NCBI GenBank assembly: GCA_951406725.2
Contig: OX597821.1
Location: forward strand, 38,130,001-38,194,000
DNA from: Octopus vulgaris
Lineage: Eukaryota
Direction of reading: 5' to 3'
Length of the DNA: 64,000 nucleotides
A model generated the notes under the pieces. The model did not search any database. It was not told the DNA's origin and worked only from the letters and a program-made list of their open reading frames with translations. Position 1 is the first letter of the stretch. Each line of letters begins with the position of its first letter. The translations under genes and the position numbers were made by a program. This document shows, in pieces, positions 12,388 through 63,873 of the stretch.

Positions 12388-12450
12388 TTGTATATAAATA
12401 TATATATGTATATAAATTGATCAAAATAAAAACATGATGCCAAGGATTCA

Positions 12451-12528
12451 GCGGTACATATGTTTCGGGCCTTTATTAGACAGATTTATAACAATGCATA
12501 ATGTTTGTCTGTGGCCTTCTTCAGCCGC
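12451..12528 (-). ncRNA. Type I hammerhead ribozyme (inverted copy of 13233-13310)
   Basis: Reverse complement of the same motif; stem II GGCC/GGCC. Confidence 0.75.
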
Positions 12529-13232
12529 GCACAACAGCTTCCACAAGGACATGTGTTACATCAAAAATTCTAGGTTGGGGATGCAAATCCTCTCATTCGC
12601 GTACGACATAATGCGGCAGCAGCATAGAATTGAAGCGTCCATCTCTTTCTTCCCTCAATGTAGAATGAGGAAATTTGGATGTTGAAGTAATGTAAGTAAA
12701 TAAATACATATATAGACGTGAAGATGGAGGGGCGAGAATTCAGGACGAGGGATAAAAAATGTATAAAAAGTGTAAGTATAGAAAAATATAAAAATGTAGA
12801 GTATAAAGATATAAAGAGATATAAGGAGATATAAAGGGGATATAAAGAATATAAAGAAATATAAATGAATGTAAAGGCATAAGGTTATAAAGTAAAAATA
12901 GAAATAGAAATAAAAGTAAAAAGTAAAAAAATAAAAATAGGAATAAACATGATAAAAATGTAAAAAAATATAAAGATAAGGGATGTATAGAGGTTACGGA
13001 CCAAACATGGTGGTCAGGAGATTGATAAAATTTAGTTGTAGAAGCTTTGGGTGTCAATAAATCAACAGGGTCGTCTGGGGACCTAGTGTATTGTAAATCA
13101 GAGCTGTTGAGCGGTTAATCTAGTTCTTTGAATTAATTGGTCATCTTGTACATACATACCATCATGGATACATACACCCATATACACGCGCACATATACG
13201 CGTAACACATGTCCTTGTGGAAGCTGTTGTGC

Positions 13233-13310
13233 GCGGCTGAAGAAGGCCACAGACATACATTATGCATTGTTATAAATCTGTCTAATAAAGGTCCGAAACA
13301 TATGTACCGC
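13233..13310 (+). ncRNA. Type I hammerhead ribozyme with extended stem II
   Basis: GCGG CUGAAGA aggcc...ggucc GAAA CAUAUG UA CCGC: stem I GCGG/CCGC, palindromic ACAUAUGU, GUA triplet. Base of stem II is imperfect. Confidence 0.75.
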
Positions 13311-13469
13311 TGAATCCTTGGCATCATGTTTTTATTTTGATCAATTTACTCCACCACCTACACCACCAAACGGTATACACAGGTGCTTATAATTATCAAG
13401 TACTCACCCCGAATTTCTATATATGTATATATATATGTATATATATATATGTGTATATATATATATGTG

Positions 13470-13519
<50 letters not shown>

Positions 13520-14222
13520 TGTATGTATATATATATCTCAGCAAACTCATTCTCCATTCATATTTTCCGCTATTCACCCCCACCAACATATATATATGCA
13601 CGCACACACATACGCACGCAAATATATGCATATTCGGCTATATAAGATTTATAAAGTATCCAGGCATATCACCTTAGACAGAAACACGCACAGAAACACG
13701 TTAAGTAATCCATTACAGTTTTGAATCAACGATGAAGGCTCGACACTTTCGTTGTGTAATGCACAATTTCATTTGTTTATCAGTAATTGGATAGATACTA
13801 GAATCCTTGGTGTGGCGTGAACTTACACACGTCTATATTGAAAATGCCGGATGAGCCTCAAAATTACTTAATGTATGACGCAATCCCTACTCTGTTAAGC
13901 TTACATTAAATAAGGAGATTCTCAGCAAAGCAATTGCCAGAAAATTTAAAACCCGTCCGTTTGTTTCCTCCTACTGCATACACATATTATATATATGTAT
14001 ATATATATATATAAATATATATATAAATATATATATATATATGTATATATATATAACGTGTCGTATTTTTGCCATTTCAATATGGCTAACCCCAAAGGGT
14101 GGATGCTACTGTAGTTTTTAGCCCCAGGAGGACACACTCCTCCAGCTGACCATAGACACACTTTCTGTGTCCTGTCAGTATTTGCAAAGGGAAGTCATCC
14201 TTCCCGTCTTCAACTTATGATA

Positions 14223-14267
14223 CACACGGACTCGAGTTTCGAGGTATTGACCTCTCGTCAGCGTGTG
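14223..14267 (-). ncRNA. Type I hammerhead ribozyme, unit 1 (intact)
   Basis: Minus strand reads CACACG CUGACGA GAGGU caau ACCUC GAAA CUCGAG UC CGUGUG: full core, 6-bp stem I, 5-bp stem II, palindromic stem III ACUCGAGU, GUC cleavage triplet. Confidence 0.93.
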
Positions 14268-14575
14268 ACAATCATAGTTGTCGCCGAGAATTAGATTTCC
14301 TTCACAAATACTTATACTTTTTCCAGCGTCCACTGTCGCTGATAATGAAAAAGTGAAATGAAACAATGATAAATATCAATGTGAGTTATATACAGTAGCG
14401 GTAACACAACGTGTCGTATTTTTGCCATTTCAATATGGCTAACCCCTAAGGGTGGATGCTACTGTAGTTTTTAGCCCCAGGAGGACACACTCCTCCAGCT
14501 GGCCATAGACACACTTTCTGTGTCCTGTCAGTATTTGCAAAGGGAAGTCATCCTTCCCGTCTTCAACTTATGATA

Positions 14576-14620
14576 CACACGGACTCGAGTTTCGAGGTAT
14601 TGACCTCTTGTCAGCGTGTG
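14576..14620 (-). ncRNA. Type I hammerhead ribozyme, unit 2 (G8>A, probably inactive)
   Basis: Same as unit 1 except the core reads CUGACAA (plus strand cctcttgtcag). Confidence 0.85.
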
Positions 14621-14927
14621 ACAATCATAGTTGTCGCCGAGAATTAGATTTCCTTCACAAATACTTATACTTTTCCAGCGTCCACTGTCGCTGATAATGA
14701 AAAAGTGAAATGAAACAATGATAAATATCAATGTGAGTTATATACAGTAGCGGTAACACAACGTGTCGTATTTTTGCCATTTCAATATGGCTAACCCCTA
14801 AGGGTGGATGCTACTGTAGTTTTTAGCCCCAGGAGGACACACTCCTCCAGCTGGCCATAGACACACTTTCTGTGTCCTGTCAGTATTTGCAAAGGGAAGT
14901 CATCCTTCCCGTCTTCAACTTATGATA

Positions 14928-14972
14928 CACACGGACTCGAGTTTCGAGGTATTGACCTCTCGTCAGCGTGTG
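14928..14972 (-). ncRNA. Type I hammerhead ribozyme, unit 3 (intact)
   Basis: Identical motif to unit 1. Confidence 0.93.
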
Positions 14973-15280
14973 ACAATCATAGTTGTCGCCGAGAATTAGA
15001 TTTCCTTCACAAATACTTATACTTTTTCCAGCGTCCACTGTCGCTGATATTGAAAAAGTGAAATCAAACAATGATAAATATCAATGTGAGTTATATACAG
15101 TAGCGTTAACACAACGTGTCGTATTTTTGCCATTTCAATATGGCTAATCCCTAAGGGTGGATGCTACTGTAGTTTTTAGCCCCAGGAGGACACACTCCTC
15201 CAGCTGGCCATAGACACACTTTCTGTGTCCTGTCAGTATTTGCAAAGGGAAGTCATCCTTCCCGTCTTCAACTTATGATA

Positions 15281-15325
15281 CACACGGACTCGAGTTTCGA
15301 GGTATTGACCTCTCGTCAGCGTGTG
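15281..15325 (-). ncRNA. Type I hammerhead ribozyme, unit 4 (intact)
   Basis: Identical motif to unit 1. Confidence 0.93.
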
Positions 15326-15541
15326 ACAATCATAGTTGTCGCCGAGAATTAGATTTCCTTCACAAATACTTATACTTTTTCCAGCGTCCACTGTCGCTGA
15401 TATTGAAAAAGTGAAATCAAACAATGATAAATATCAATGTGAGTTATATACAGTAGCGGTAACACATCAGCGACAGTGGACGCTGGAAAAAGTATAAGTA
15501 TTTGTGAAGGAAATCTAATTCTCGGCGACAACTATGATTGT

Positions 15542-15586
15542 CACACGCTGACGAGAGGTCAATACCTCGAAACTCGAGTCCGTGTG
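15542..15586 (+). ncRNA. Type I hammerhead ribozyme in the inverted unit (intact, sense to the PTP pre-mRNA)
   Basis: cacacg ctgacga gaggt caat acctc gaaa ctcgag tc cgtgtg read directly on the plus strand. Confidence 0.93.
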
Positions 15587-15770
15587 TATCATAAGTTGAA
15601 GACGGGAAGGATGACTTCCCTTTGCAAATACTGACAGGACACAGAAAGTGTGTCCTCATGGGGCTAAAAACTACAGTAGCATCCACCCTTAGGGGTTAGC
15701 CATATTGAAATGGCAAAAATACGACACGTTGTGTTACCGCTACTGTATATAACTCACATTGATATTTATC

Positions 15771-15820
<50 letters not shown>

Positions 15821-15877
15821 CATATATGTATATATATATATACATATATATATATATAGAAGGAGCTTAGACTAGTA

Positions 15878-15910
<33 letters not shown>

Positions 15911-16634
15911 TTATATATATATTTATATATATATATATATACATATATATAATATGTGTATGCAATAGGAGGAAACAAACGGACGGGTTTAAAATTTTCT
16001 GGCAATTGCTTTGCTGAGAATCTCCTTATTTAATGTAAGCTTAACAGAGTAGGGATTGCGTCATACATTAAGTAATTTTGAGGCTCATCCGGCATTTTCA
16101 ATATAGACGTGTGTAAGTTCACGCCACACCAAGGATTCTAGTATTTATCTAATTACTGATAAACAAATGAAATTGTGCATTACACAACAAAAGTGTCGAG
16201 CCTTCATCGTTGATTCAAAACTGTAATGGATTACTTAACGTGTTTCTGTCTAAGGTGATATGCCTGGATACTTTATAAATCTTATATAGCCGAATATGCA
16301 TATATTTGCGTGCGTATGTGTGTGCGTGCATATATATATGTTGGTGGGGGTGAATAGCGGAAAATATGAATGGAGAATGAGTTTGCTGAGATCATGCAAT
16401 TTATTGAATGACCTTGCCATCACTTGGAGTATTTGCCTCTAAATCCAACGCCGAGCATAACGTCATTATCGTTAACATCATAACTGTTTTGTTAGTCTTG
16501 GCACTGATGCTATTTTCCCTCTATTGTAATTATGTCTTCTAATTTATTATTATTATTATTGCTGTTTTTTATTATTACATTAGTTTTCTAATAATAATAA
16601 TAATAATAATAATAATGATAATAATAATAATAAT

Positions 16635-19969: not shown

Positions 19970-19973
<4 letters not shown>

Positions 19974-20067
19974 TAGAAAAAACACCTTTTATCAATTCAA
20001 AATGAACAATTAGATGGTGTAATTTAATTGTTCATTTTGAATTGATAAAAGGTGTTTTTTCTAATTT
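19970..20067. repeat. Perfect 43-bp-arm hairpin with 12-bp spacer between TA tracts
   Basis: aaattagaaaaaacacc...aacaatta gatggtgtaatt taattgtt...ggtgttttttctaattt. Confidence 0.95.
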
Positions 20068-29959: not shown

Positions 29960-30568
29960 CAATGGTCAACTGGTACTTATTTTATCGACTTAGACAAGAG
30001 GAAAGGTAAAGTCAATATCAGCGGAATTTGAACTCAGAACGTGAAGACGGACAAAATACCGCTAAGAAGTTTGTCCACTGTGCTAACAATTCTATCTTCT
30101 TGTGTCTCAAAGGAAGCATTAATATTCCTTTCTACTATAAGCACGTGTCCTGAAATTAGGGCGCGGGGTAGTCGATTGCATCAATCCCAGTATTCAACTG
30201 GTACTTATTCCCTTGACTCTGAAAGGATGAAAGGCAAAGTCGACTGTGGCAGAATGTGAACTCAGAACATGAAGACGGACGATATGGCGCTGAGCATTTT
30301 GTCCGGCGTTCTAACGGTTCTGCCAGCTCACTGCCCAAAAGGAAGCATTAATATTACAAGTAAATCTAAGGCAGCAAGCTGGCAGAATCGTTAGAACGCT
30401 GGGCAAAATATTGAGCGGCGTTTCGTCCGTCTTTACGTTCTGAGTTCAAATTCCACCGAGGTTCACTTTACCTTTCATCCTTTCAGGGTCGATAAAACAA
30501 TTACCAGTTGAGCACTGGGGTCAATGTAATCGTCTTACTCTCTTTCTTTTCTGCCAAAATCTGAAACC
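29960..30568. mobile_element. Cluster of family A SINEs: minus 29960-30100, minus 30127-30337, plus 30368-30568
   Basis: Target duplications aaaggaagcattaatatt (30109-30126 / 30338-30355) and aatattaca(a/t)gtaaatct (30350-30367 / 30569-30586). Confidence 0.85.
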
Positions 30569-44537: not shown

Positions 44538-45295
44538 AGAATCGTTAGTGCGCCCGGCGAAATGCTTAGCGGTATTTCGTCTGCGTTACGTTGTGTTCAA
44601 TTCCGCCGAGGTCGACTTTGCCTTTCATCCTTTCGGGGTCGATAAATTAAGTACCAGTTACGAACTGGGGTCGATGTAATCGACTTAATACCTATGTCTG
44701 TCCTTGTTTGTTCCCTCTGTGTTTAGCCCCTTGTTGGTGATAAAGAAATAGGTATTTCGTCTGCTGTTACGTTCTGAGTTCAAATTCCGCCGAGGTCGAC
44801 TTTGCCTTTCATCCTTTCGGGGTCGATTAAATAAGTATCAGCTACGCACTGGAGCCGATATAATCTACTTAATCCGTCTGTCTGTCCTTGTTTGTCTCCT
44901 CTGTGTTTATCCCCTTGTGTGTAGTAAAGAAATAGGTATTTCGTCTGCCACTACGTTCTCAGTTAAATTTCCGCAGAGGTCGACTTTGTCTTTCATCCTT
45001 TCGGAGTCGATAAATTAAGTACTAGTTACGCACTGGGGGTCGATATAATCGACTTAATCCGTCTGTCTGTCCTTATTTGTCTCCTCTGTGTTTAGCCCCT
45101 TGTGGGTAGTAAAGAAATGGGTATTTCGTCTGCCACTACGTTCTGAGTTCAAATTCCGTCGAGGTCGACTTTGCCTTTCATTCTTTCTGGGTCGATAAAT
45201 TAAGTACCAGTTACGCACTGGTGTCGATGTAATCGACTTAACCATTTGTCTGCCTTTGTCCCCTCTATGTTTAACCTATTGTGGGCAATAAAGAA

Positions 45296-45297
<2 letters not shown>
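44538..45297 (+). mobile_element. Tandem array of four family A SINE bodies (~180-185 bp units)
   Basis: Units gtatttcgtctg...aagaaat begin at ~44572, 44752, 44936 and 45121; only the first has part of the 5' head. Confidence 0.92.
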
Positions 45298-61835: not shown

Positions 61836-63374
61836 CCTACCTACCTACCTATAAGTATACATACATAGATATATGCACATAAACATTCGTCTCTGTGTGC
61901 ATGTATAAATATATATACATACACAGAGACATATATGTATATTAGGTGTGTATATATATATACATATACATATATACACATGCATAAATATATATATACA
62001 TACATACATATATACATGCACACACACACACACATATATATATATACACACCACACACGCGCGCACATACATGCTATTCTTCACGCCAGGAATCAAATCT
62101 ATCCACTCGCACACATTACGTATGACAAAGGTGTGTGCGTGGTGGGGACTTTGATGTATTTCGGAAAAGTTATTCCTGACATTTCCTTTGACATAAATCC
62201 GACAATTTTTTTCGTTTGCTTTTTCAGTTAATAGCTTCGAGTCGAGTGGCAGTGATGCTGCCTCCCTCCATTAAACACCACCAATCGCAAAGAAAGTAAA
62301 AAGGAACATCTAACTAAAATTAAGTTACACAAAATTTAAAAGACAAAACAATATATATTAAAATTTTATTTTCATTGTAAGATGTCTTAAAAAGGATTAA
62401 ACATATTTTGACATGTAGGCATTGCAGAAGAAACTAGAGAATAATAAACAAAAAAAAACGACATTGGAAAATAATGAAGAAAGGGCGATGACGAAGGAGA
62501 GAGAAAGGAAGAAGGAATGAATCAATAAATGAATGGCGAAAGAAAGAAAGACGTACAGTGAAGAAAATCTGACTGGCGTCTCTAGATTTTGGGTGGGTGG
62601 GAGCATATTACCCAGCTAACCAGTCAAGCGTAGATAATAACCCATTCAGGTTGAAACTATTAAGTATTATAATGAACTTTTGGCAAAGACTTTTGACTTT
62701 CCTTGTTCAATATTGAGAGTCTGATGAGTGGCCGTGCGGCAGAAGCAGTGGAACAAAACGTTAAATGCCTTACTTTACCATTTCTAATCTCACCAAGGTC
62801 ACTTTGTCATCTCTAGTTTCGATTAAAATGTAGCAATAACTTACTAACGACGAGTCAATCGATTATATCAACAGACATAATCAAAAATGGTATACAAAAG
62901 TTGGCAAAAACGTTATGGTTCTGTCGTAGCAGACAATAGTTTGCAAAAAATGTATGGTTCTCTTTTCTAACTTTGAGAATTACAGGAAACGAAAATAAAT
63001 CAATGTGGACATCACACCACTAAACTGATCTACAAACTAGAATATTTTCTATATTAGGGTGTACAAAAGCCCCGGCCGCAGCCCACAGCATGTTATCTTT
63101 TTTAAAGTTTTCAATTTTTATTTGTGGGTTATTGAGGAATTGATAGCTTCTAGACAGCCTTTTGCGTCACCACTTTAAATTCTTGTTTACATAAACGTTT
63201 GCTAGTAAAGCAAATGGGATATTTCCATGCCAAATGTGTTACAACATACAATATCTACCCTCTCTCTCTCTCTCTCTCTCTGTATATATATATATAAGTT
63301 CAGCAATATTTAGATTCAAGTGAAGATATTCTTGTTGCTTACTTTTAATATATATATATATATATATACATATG

Positions 63375-63779
63375 TTAAAATAGTGGTACATTTAAACACA
63401 AAAGAAAAATTATCCTTTAACAGGTAACTTTTTACATGCTAGAAATAGCAGCCAACACGGCCAAAACCACGATTTAATAGCAATTTTCGAAGTAATTGAA
63501 AAATGAAAGCTTTTACCTTGTTATTTATTATCGGTTATACCATGGTTTCGAAATTTCTTTAGCAAACAACATTATTTGCCATTCTTTGATAGTTAAATTA
63601 TCAAAATAATATAATTGCGAGGCGAATTTCTCGTCAGTAACCGGCCTCAATAACTAACTTATAATTCTGAGACAAGAACATGTGTCCCGTCATTATATGT
63701 TGGCTGCTATTTCTAGCATGTAAAAAATTACCTGTTAAAGGATTATTTTTCTTTTGTGTTTAAATGTACACTATTTTAA
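63375..63779. repeat. ~83-bp inverted repeats (63375-63457 and 63698-63779) flanking the hammerhead
   Basis: ttaaaatag...agcagccaaca versus tgttggctgct...ctattttaa, with few mismatches. Confidence 0.9.
63532..63643 (-). ncRNA. Type I hammerhead ribozyme with a large structured loop II
   Basis: Minus strand: CGGUUA CUGACGA GAAAUU [69 nt, two hairpins] AAUUUC GAAA CCAUGG UA UAACCG; palindromic ACCAUGGU. Confidence 0.88.
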
Positions 63780-63873
63780 AATAGGAATATGTTGTCTATT
63801 AACTATTTATACATGTTAGGCCACTGGTAGTGATATTTATGACGAATATTAGCTACCCTATATATGTATCTTA

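What the first reader, a model, noticed from the sequence alone, without database searches (positions are those of the whole stretch)
15400..15773. Tandem-plus-inverted architecture with a circularly permuted, variant fifth copy
Seen: the array flips orientation at 15466. The inverted copy starts and ends at a different phase of the unit and reads across the unit junction. It also lacks 24 bp between two GACACAC direct repeats. Known: Penelope-like insertions typically show tandem plus inverted terminal segments. Inference: a PLE reverse transcriptase copied a circular or multimeric RNA and switched template, possibly to a variant RNA.
Basis: partly seen in the sequence, partly recalled or inferred. 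Interest (0 to 1): 0.7.

Follow-up and report, generated by a model that had tools for sequence, protein, structure and literature searches.

The report
Two-armed hammerhead retrozyme with Penelope footprint
This is one of a few hundred copies of a small non-coding repeat with a self-cutting RNA motif, pasted into TA microsatellites, often as two back-to-back arms that start at two fixed points about 45 bases apart, which likely records a Penelope-type enzyme copying one RNA from both cut DNA strands.

Summary
The sequence features are real: four 353-bp tandem units (14055-15465), then a 308-bp inverted arm (15466-15773) that crosses the unit junction and lacks 24 bp between GACACAC repeats. 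The unit carries a type I hammerhead, so this is a non-LTR retrozyme. The 'permutation' is not random. Outer ends fall at two fixed sites about 43-46 nt apart, the Penelope 'tail'. Of 65 inverted loci, 56 have one arm from each site, 1 has two tailed ends and none has two untailed ends; a pattern-only test gave 25 of 25. Inner junctions vary. Both arms share one haplotype (5 of 378 mismatches, against 26% permuted), and only 1 of 124 arms stops at the ribozyme cut. The 24-bp deletion occurs once in this young family (651 long forms): a slip, not a circulating variant RNA. Best reading: a borrowed Penelope RT-endonuclease primes both strands on one circular or uncleaved RNA. No partner element was found, no RNA data were usable and no long read spans 15466. 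The architecture is published for Penelope elements, and this scan noted the same pattern before on other DNA.

The parts
14055..15465 (-). Tandem arm: four 353/352-bp retrozyme units; RNA sense is the minus strand; outer end at the untailed site (phase 1)
15466..15773 (+). Inverted arm, RNA sense on plus; phases 289 down to 1, then 353 down to 311; outer end at the tailed site
15731..15773 (+). 43-nt tail beyond the untailed site, present on this arm only
15466..15466 (.). Head-to-head junction with 1-nt overlap
15648..15654 (+). Single GTGTGTC left by the 24-bp deletion between two GACACAC repeats
15542..15586 (+). Type I hammerhead, core intact; predicted cut after 15580
   Evidence: RF00163, 32.2 bits, E 2e-5, below gathering score 34
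14223..14267 (-). Type I hammerhead, unit 1
14576..14620 (-). Hammerhead of unit 2 with a core change (CUGACGA to CUGACAA); no Rfam hit; coordinates by register with unit 1
   Evidence: phase 202
14928..14972 (-). Type I hammerhead, unit 3
15281..15325 (-). Type I hammerhead, unit 4
13984..14054 (.). (TA)n target, left
15774..15955 (.). (TA)n target, right (interrupted)
13536..13987 (.). Inverted duplicate of near-unique host flank 15952-16391 (5 substitutions, one 12-bp indel); not a family feature

Best explanation
This is a copy of a young non-LTR retrozyme family, a 353-nt hammerhead-bearing non-coding repeat, whose two arms were likely made when a borrowed Penelope-type RT-endonuclease nicked both strands of a (TA)n tract and primed cDNA from each nick on the same, likely circular, RNA. 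Shown: the two fixed outer ends, their one-of-each pairing, variable inner junctions, shared haplotype, read-through of the ribozyme cut, (TA)n targets. Inferred: one subunit starts at the untailed site and the other about 43-46 nt further 3' (the tail); each runs round the RNA and stops independently; the two cDNA ends are joined, often by microhomology, giving the head-to-head junction. Single-arm loci would be events where one priming failed or was lost. The 24-bp gap is likely a one-off slip between 7-nt direct repeats. The partner enzyme is not identified, and circle versus uncleaved multimer is not settled.
For: Fixed ends: in the 40 loci, chosen without regard to their ends, 63 of 64 outer ends lie at phase 352-5 or 303-312 (hand count). 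Pairing: of 65 inverted loci, 56 are untailed+tailed, 1 tailed+tailed, 0 untailed+untailed, 8 have one end elsewhere (one of the 8, L117, resolved as untailed+tailed). Pattern-only test on C1-C5: 52 tailed and 63 untailed ends give 25 pairs within 6 kb, all one of each and converging, P about 2e-8 if ends were independent. Inner ends: 96 distinct phases of 112. Arm lengths and inner phases do not match between arms beyond chance (p 0.12 and 0.19). One template: 5 of 378 arm-to-arm mismatches in 60 loci, against 26% permuted (lowest 18% in 5000 shuffles); 14 rare variants in 10 loci are in every covering copy of both arms. Not a cleaved monomer: 1 of 124 arms stops within 5 nt of the cut. Junction overlap of 2 nt or more in 27 of 56, against 16% simulated. 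A neighbouring Penelope-like family with an ORF shows the same one-tailed inverted layout in 3 of 4 long loci fetched, the fourth being a direct tandem. PMC11167929: a purified PLE protein cuts and extends both strands and starts at two internal sites that define the tail. PMC8557442: tail often at one end only.
Against: No autonomous element with this unit as its pLTR was found: two RT families and 14 odd loci checked. No usable RNA data. The tail is 43-46 nt, against 30-40 in the papers read. One true tailed+tailed locus exists (L167). Haplotype sharing could partly reflect one subfamily being active at a time, or conversion between arms: 5 variants are in both arms but not all copies, and arm-to-arm divergence (1.09%) exceeds within-arm divergence (0.80%). 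In this locus units 1-2 share two variants that units 3-4 lack, which a single monomer circle does not explain by itself. Overlaps are BLAST-derived and may include mismatches. Most loci were selected by similarity or by having one fixed end. The 15466 joint is not read-verified.
Confidence: 0.65

Rival explanations
1. Same two-strand Penelope priming, but the template is an uncleaved linear multimer transcribed from a genomic array, not a circle.
For: PMC11167929: ribozyme cleavage was not needed in vitro and unprocessed RNA was the main substrate. Units 1-2 versus 3-4 here differ at two linked sites. 8 rare variants are in some but not all copies of a locus.
Against: 22 rare variants are in all covering copies of their locus, up to 4 of 4 units, as copying one monomer repeatedly would give. 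Cores are intact in 4 of 5 hammerheads here. Other animals' retrozymes are mostly circular RNA (PMC7229834). I did not test whether ordered unit variants recur between loci.
Confidence: 0.2
2. One primed cDNA folds back and copies itself; the endonuclease then resolves the intermediate with staggered cuts that leave the tail on one side.
For: Explains shared haplotypes directly. A few junctions sit at internal hairpins with 9-23 nt overlaps. Self-priming was proposed in PMC3846280 and endonuclease resolution of the tail in PMC8557442.
Against: Arm lengths fit fold-back within 40 nt in only 8 of 56 loci (permuted mean 5.0); in 30 of 56 the untailed arm is longer than the tailed arm could template, here 1412 versus 308 nt; inner phases are not close.
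Confidence: 0.08
3. One reading: the RT copied a circular or multimeric RNA, then switched template at a random phase to a shorter variant RNA.
For: The 24-bp-short junction also occurs in 3 older relatives; phase-73 T occurs in one other locus.
Against: Outer phase 311 is one of two family-wide sites. The short form is 1 copy in the young family against 651 long. The three older hits are diverged (two at 73-78% identity, one a short fragment), and one has the segment in its other arm. A switch between sense RNAs would not invert the strand.
Confidence: 0.04
4. The inversion at this locus is an assembly artefact, such as a fold-back read or two haplotypes merged.
For: The whole 13536-16391 stretch is a loose palindrome; its two flank arms carry alleles that different public runs share, and runs X1 and X4 hold one unbroken contig from the flank arm into the right flank. 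No read spans 15466.
Against: The arms are asymmetric and differ by substitutions and indels; the ends follow the family rule exactly; independent short-read contigs show such junctions and TA-abutting tailed ends.
Confidence: 0.03

Closest known systems
Metazoan non-LTR retrozymes (PMC7229834: passages and Discussion read; bioRxiv 10.64898/2026.07.22.740005: parts 1-3 of 5 read)
   Same: Short tandem non-coding units with a type I hammerhead per unit; no ORF; PLEs proposed as the mobilising partner.
   Different: PMC7229834 has 0 occurrences of 'inverted', 'target site' or 'microsatellite' in its main text. The parts of the preprint read argue from co-distribution and pLTR phylogeny in vertebrates and describe no two-armed ends. 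Here the integration footprint itself is measured. Expression and cleavage were not tested.
EN+ Penelope-like elements (PMC8557442 passages; PMC3846280 passages)
   Same: Partial tandem plus inverted 5'-truncated copy, a tail at one end only, (TA)n target preference (reported for Naiads), hammerhead in the repeat.
   Different: No RT-endonuclease ORF; both arms can be multimers of the whole unit; tail 43-46 nt rather than 30-40; no parent pLTR found.
PAc Poseidon element in vitro (PMC11167929, parts 1-2 of 4 read)
   Same: Two internal RT start sites bounding the tail, downstream of the hammerhead cut; AT-rich target; both strands extended; predicted dimer; start in a stem-loop (here a predicted CACG tetraloop).
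   Different: That paper saw no difference in start site between strands; the loci here show near-strict one-site-per-arm pairing. Start sites lie 171-174 and 216-220 nt after the cut here, against about 85-92 nt for the main PAc site.
L1 twin priming (recalled, no call)
   Same: Two primers on one RNA give an inverted insertion.
   Different: In L1 the second primer anneals at a variable internal site and there is a poly(A) end; here both sites are fixed and there is no poly(A).

Membership tests
Non-LTR retrozyme | Short (150-450 bp) tandem repeats, dispersed in many loci | tested here: met
   353-bp unit; 651 exact hits of one internal 21-mer
Non-LTR retrozyme | Type I hammerhead in the units | tested here: met
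   RF00163 in 4 of 5 copies, 32.2 bits, E 2e-5, just under the gathering score of 34; unit 2 has a core change
Non-LTR retrozyme | No protein coding | tested here: met
   No stop-free frame of 150 aa or more in 14055-15773
Non-LTR retrozyme | Low GC (under 45%) | tested here: met
   0.42 over 15283-15584; whole unit not computed separately
Non-LTR retrozyme | Self-cleavage and expression as circular RNA | not testable with these tools
EN+ Penelope-like element (autonomous) | RT plus GIY-YIG ORF | tested here: not met
   No ORF in the element; it works like a PLE passenger and is not itself an autonomous PLE
Penelope-type integration footprint | Tandem plus inverted 5'-truncated copy | tested here: met
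   65 of 115 loci are head-to-head
Penelope-type integration footprint | Tail at one end only | tested here: met
   56 of 65; 25 of 25; length 43-46 nt, slightly above the published 30-40
Penelope-type integration footprint | AT-rich or (TA)n target | tested here: met
   Flanks printed; a few loci (L015, L037, L116, L208) have a non-TA flank
Derivative of a PLE pLTR | Homology to the pLTR of an autonomous PLE in the same genome | tested here: inconclusive
   None with two RT families or 14 odd loci; other PLE families not surveyed

The most novel reading that the evidence does not exclude
A Penelope RT-endonuclease dimer holds a single retrozyme RNA circle asymmetrically: one subunit starts at the untailed site and the other at the tailed site, and both roll round the same circle from opposite strands of the target. 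This one rule would explain the tandem, inverted and one-sided-tail anatomy of Penelope insertions and show that animal retrozyme circles are true PLE substrates.
Probability: 0.4. Interest if true: 0.7.

Novelty: new member of a known kind. Interest (0 to 1): 0.45.

Why it matters
How Penelope elements form their tandem/inverted structure with a one-sided tail is stated as open in PMC8557442, and which enzyme mobilises animal retrozymes is only proposed in PMC7229834 and the 2026 preprint. A 353-nt substrate with two mapped start sites and a near-strict pairing rule gives sharp predictions for an existing in vitro assay. The locus itself is an ordinary member of its family.

Tried and rejected
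Random circular permutation: rejected. Circulating 24-bp-short RNA: rejected for the young family. Linear self-cleaved monomer as template: rejected. Fold-back as the general route: not supported. Inverted flank duplication as a family feature: 6 of 113 element loci against 2 of 108 control TA tracts, not convincing. Preferred stopping zone at phases 1-89: p 0.01 in all arms but p 0.65 in pattern-selected loci, so dropped. Partner search: the neighbour family (L221-L224) and an abundant RT+GIY-YIG family (L227-L267) share no real similarity with the unit; two same-strand hits 5-6 kb apart were LINE-split copies, not a parent. Pfam gave no hit for the two L221 frames and the PDB search nothing useful; their PLE label rests on 24% identity, E 3e-12, to an RVT_1 protein with a weak GIY-YIG hit and on motifs I recall. 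Rfam miRNA hits are palindrome artefacts below gathering. Expression: no RNA holder listed. Target-site duplications cannot be read inside (TA)n. One search timed out and was redone. Dropped before counting, 3 of 118 loci: L198 (double insertion, mis-parsed), L032 (near-mirror of L018), L054 (diverged); also a separate neighbouring fragment in L203. Literature: seven searches found no paper on two-armed retrozyme ends or this family; the library lacks most subscription papers, and the preprint's supplements could not be seen and may bear on this.

Full report
Observation. The window holds four head-to-tail units of 353, 352, 353 and 353 bp at 14055-15465. I number unit positions ('phase') from 14055. 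The arm 15466-15773 is the reverse complement of phases 311-353 plus 1-289. It crosses the unit junction at 15730/15731, shares one base with the tandem arm, lacks 24 bp between two GACACAC repeats and has one adjacent substitution. Both outer ends abut (TA)n.

What the unit is. Each unit carries a type I hammerhead on the minus strand of the tandem arm and the plus strand of the inverted arm (RF00163, 32.2 bits, E 2e-5, gathering score 34). Unit 2 has a core change and is not hit. The predicted cut lies between phases 175 and 174. The monomer folds well as RNA (z -6.55) and has no long ORF. The host is a 2.8-Gb animal genome in 227 contigs. An internal 21-mer has 651 exact hits. These are the features of a metazoan non-LTR retrozyme (PMC7229834).

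The ends are not random. I analysed 115 of 118 non-redundant loci (drops listed under Tried and rejected): 65 head-to-head inverted and 50 single-armed. Outer ends cluster at an untailed site (phases 352-5) and a tailed site (303-312, mostly 308 and 311). In the 40 loci, picked only by similarity to the unit, 63 of 64 outer ends are at these sites (hand count). Among inverted loci, 56 have one arm from each site, 1 has two tailed ends (L167), none has two untailed ends, and 8 have one end elsewhere; one of those 8 (L117) was cut by the locus edge and proved to be one of each. A test from exact end patterns alone on C1-C5 (52 tailed, 63 untailed ends) gave 25 pairs within 6 kb, all mixed and converging, P about 2e-8. 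Single arms start at the untailed site in 38 of 50 and the tailed site in 11 of 50. Reverse-strand pattern counts, which in the listed rows are not inflated by overlapping matches, are 72 tailed and 105 untailed. So the 'permuted' start of the fifth copy is the family's second start site. [quoted passage not shown]

The inner junctions vary: 96 distinct phases of 112. Of 56 junctions, 27 overlap by 2 nt or more, 16 by 0-1 nt and 13 carry inserts; 16% overlap of 2 nt or more is expected at random (BLAST overlaps can include mismatches). Arm lengths are only weakly correlated (Spearman 0.30, p 0.024). They fit a fold-back copy within 40 nt in 8 of 56 (permuted 5.0, p 0.12), inner phases lie within 20 nt in 10 of 56 (permuted 7.4, p 0.19), and in 30 of 56 the untailed arm is too long to be a copy of the tailed one. 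Two largely independent syntheses fit best.

The template. Of 170 arms, 124 reach the ribozyme cut and 1 stops within 5 nt of it; 91 exceed one unit, 25 exceed two and 7 exceed three. A cleaved linear monomer is therefore excluded. The two arms of a locus share alleles at common polymorphic sites (5 mismatches of 378 in 60 loci; permuted mean 26%, lowest 18%). Of 205 rare variants at positions covered by both arms, 19 are in both, 14 of them in every covering copy (10 loci); 186 are in one arm only, so wholesale conversion between arms is unlikely. Against a clean single-circle picture: 5 variants are in both arms but not all copies, some placed symmetrically about the junction; divergence is 0.80% within arms, 1.09% between arms and 1.64% between loci; and in this locus units 1-2 share two changes (phases 291, 306) that units 3-4 lack. 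Circle versus uncleaved multimer stays open.

The 24-bp gap. The exact short junction has 4 hits in the genome against 651 for the long form. Only this locus has it on the young background. The other three are older relatives (two at 73-78% identity, one a short fragment), and one of them has the segment in its other arm. The inverted arm carries this locus's uncommon alleles 2A, 7T and 326T. Other copies show unrelated deletions of 5-18 bp. A slip between the 7-nt repeats, during reverse transcription or later, is the simplest cause.

Start-site structure. The untailed site lies in a predicted CACG tetraloop hairpin and the tailed site just after a small hairpin (these short folds are no better than shuffles). 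The loop-closing pair is U-A in 73 loci, U-U in 16 and A-U in 5, including this one: one lineage's compensation, weak evidence.

Artefact check. Only Logan contigs were available. In 4 runs, all 15 listed joints lead from tandem-arm sequence into inverted-arm sequence at varied phases, and TA loose ends lie before phases 311 and 308, so such junctions exist in independent short-read data. The 15466 joint itself is not among those listed (16 not shown). A 452-bp piece of near-unique flank is duplicated in inverted orientation around the insertion. Runs X1 and X4 hold one unbroken contig from this piece into the right flank, and the two copies share alleles with different runs. This could be a fold-back at a TA break, a join between homologues or a haplotype merge; it is not enriched at family loci (6 of 113 against 2 of 108).

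Partner. The neighbour at 12413-13417 belongs to a high-copy family with a hammerhead-like motif, TA flanks, an inverted arm and a 69-nt one-sided tail; its longer copies encode an RT-like frame, and 3 of 4 long loci fetched show the same one-tailed inverted layout. Neither it nor a second abundant RT+GIY-YIG family shares sequence with the unit. The mobilising enzyme is not identified.

Mechanism. Shown: fixed paired ends, variable junctions, shared haplotype, read-through of the cut, TA targets. From the literature: a PLE protein cuts and extends both strands, starts at two internal sites and is predicted to be a dimer (PMC11167929). Inferred: both nicks prime on one retrozyme RNA, one at each site; each cDNA rolls on and stops; the ends are joined. 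Confidence 0.65; the same mechanism on a linear multimer takes another 0.2.

Novelty. Retrozymes, the tandem/inverted/tail anatomy and the PLE-retrozyme link are all in print. My seven paper searches found no description of this family or of one-site-per-arm pairing; PMC11167929 saw no strand difference in start sites in vitro. This scan's earlier notes report the same pattern in other genomes and in a 490-nt family of this genome; I read them after my own end and haplotype analyses, and they are not independent support. Verdict: new member of a known kind, with useful mechanistic statistics; interest 0.45.

Noticed in passing
L268, L269, L282-L295 (for example G000:C2:132130200-132140100): An APE + RT + zf-RVT LINE (Tx1/L1-like, label recalled) sits in this retrozyme at about phase 233 in 13 of 14 exact hits of its end motif; two full copies show a 20-bp duplication of phases 214-233. 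4 hosts are 96-98% like the unit and 9 belong to an 86-89% sister family. Likely a site-specific LINE that targets the retrozyme beside its hammerhead; co-transport of host sequence was not excluded for the sister family.
   Followed up: partly
window 12413-13417: Insertion of another, high-copy Penelope-like family in (TA)n: inverted 147-bp repeat, 69-nt tail on one side, hammerhead-like motif with a long stem II; longer copies of about 4.7 kb carry an RT-like frame.
   Followed up: partly
window 13536-13987 and 15952-16391: Inverted duplication of near-unique host DNA around the insertion; the two copies share alleles with different public runs. Origin unexplained.
   Followed up: partly
window 14055-15465: Units 1-2 share two changes (phases 291, 306) absent from units 3-4; the tandem arm is almost exactly 4.0 units long.
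   Followed up: partly
L204-L206, L281:5718-5895: Older relatives of the unit at about 73-78% identity, most conserved at phases 30-135.
   Followed up: partly
L007: 44-bp direct duplication of flank across a single-arm insertion, like a target-site duplication.
   Followed up: no
L018 and L032 (C1:22.18 Mb and C1:21.14 Mb): Near-identical insertions in opposite orientation about 1 Mb apart; possible segmental duplication.
   Followed up: no
window 44571-45297: Four tandem copies of a 184-bp dispersed SINE-like repeat; resembles octopus SINEs by recall only.
   Followed up: no
window 10942 (-), 30170-30535, 19971-20066, 63371-63783: A further minimal hammerhead-like motif and several small inverted repeats.
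   Followed up: no
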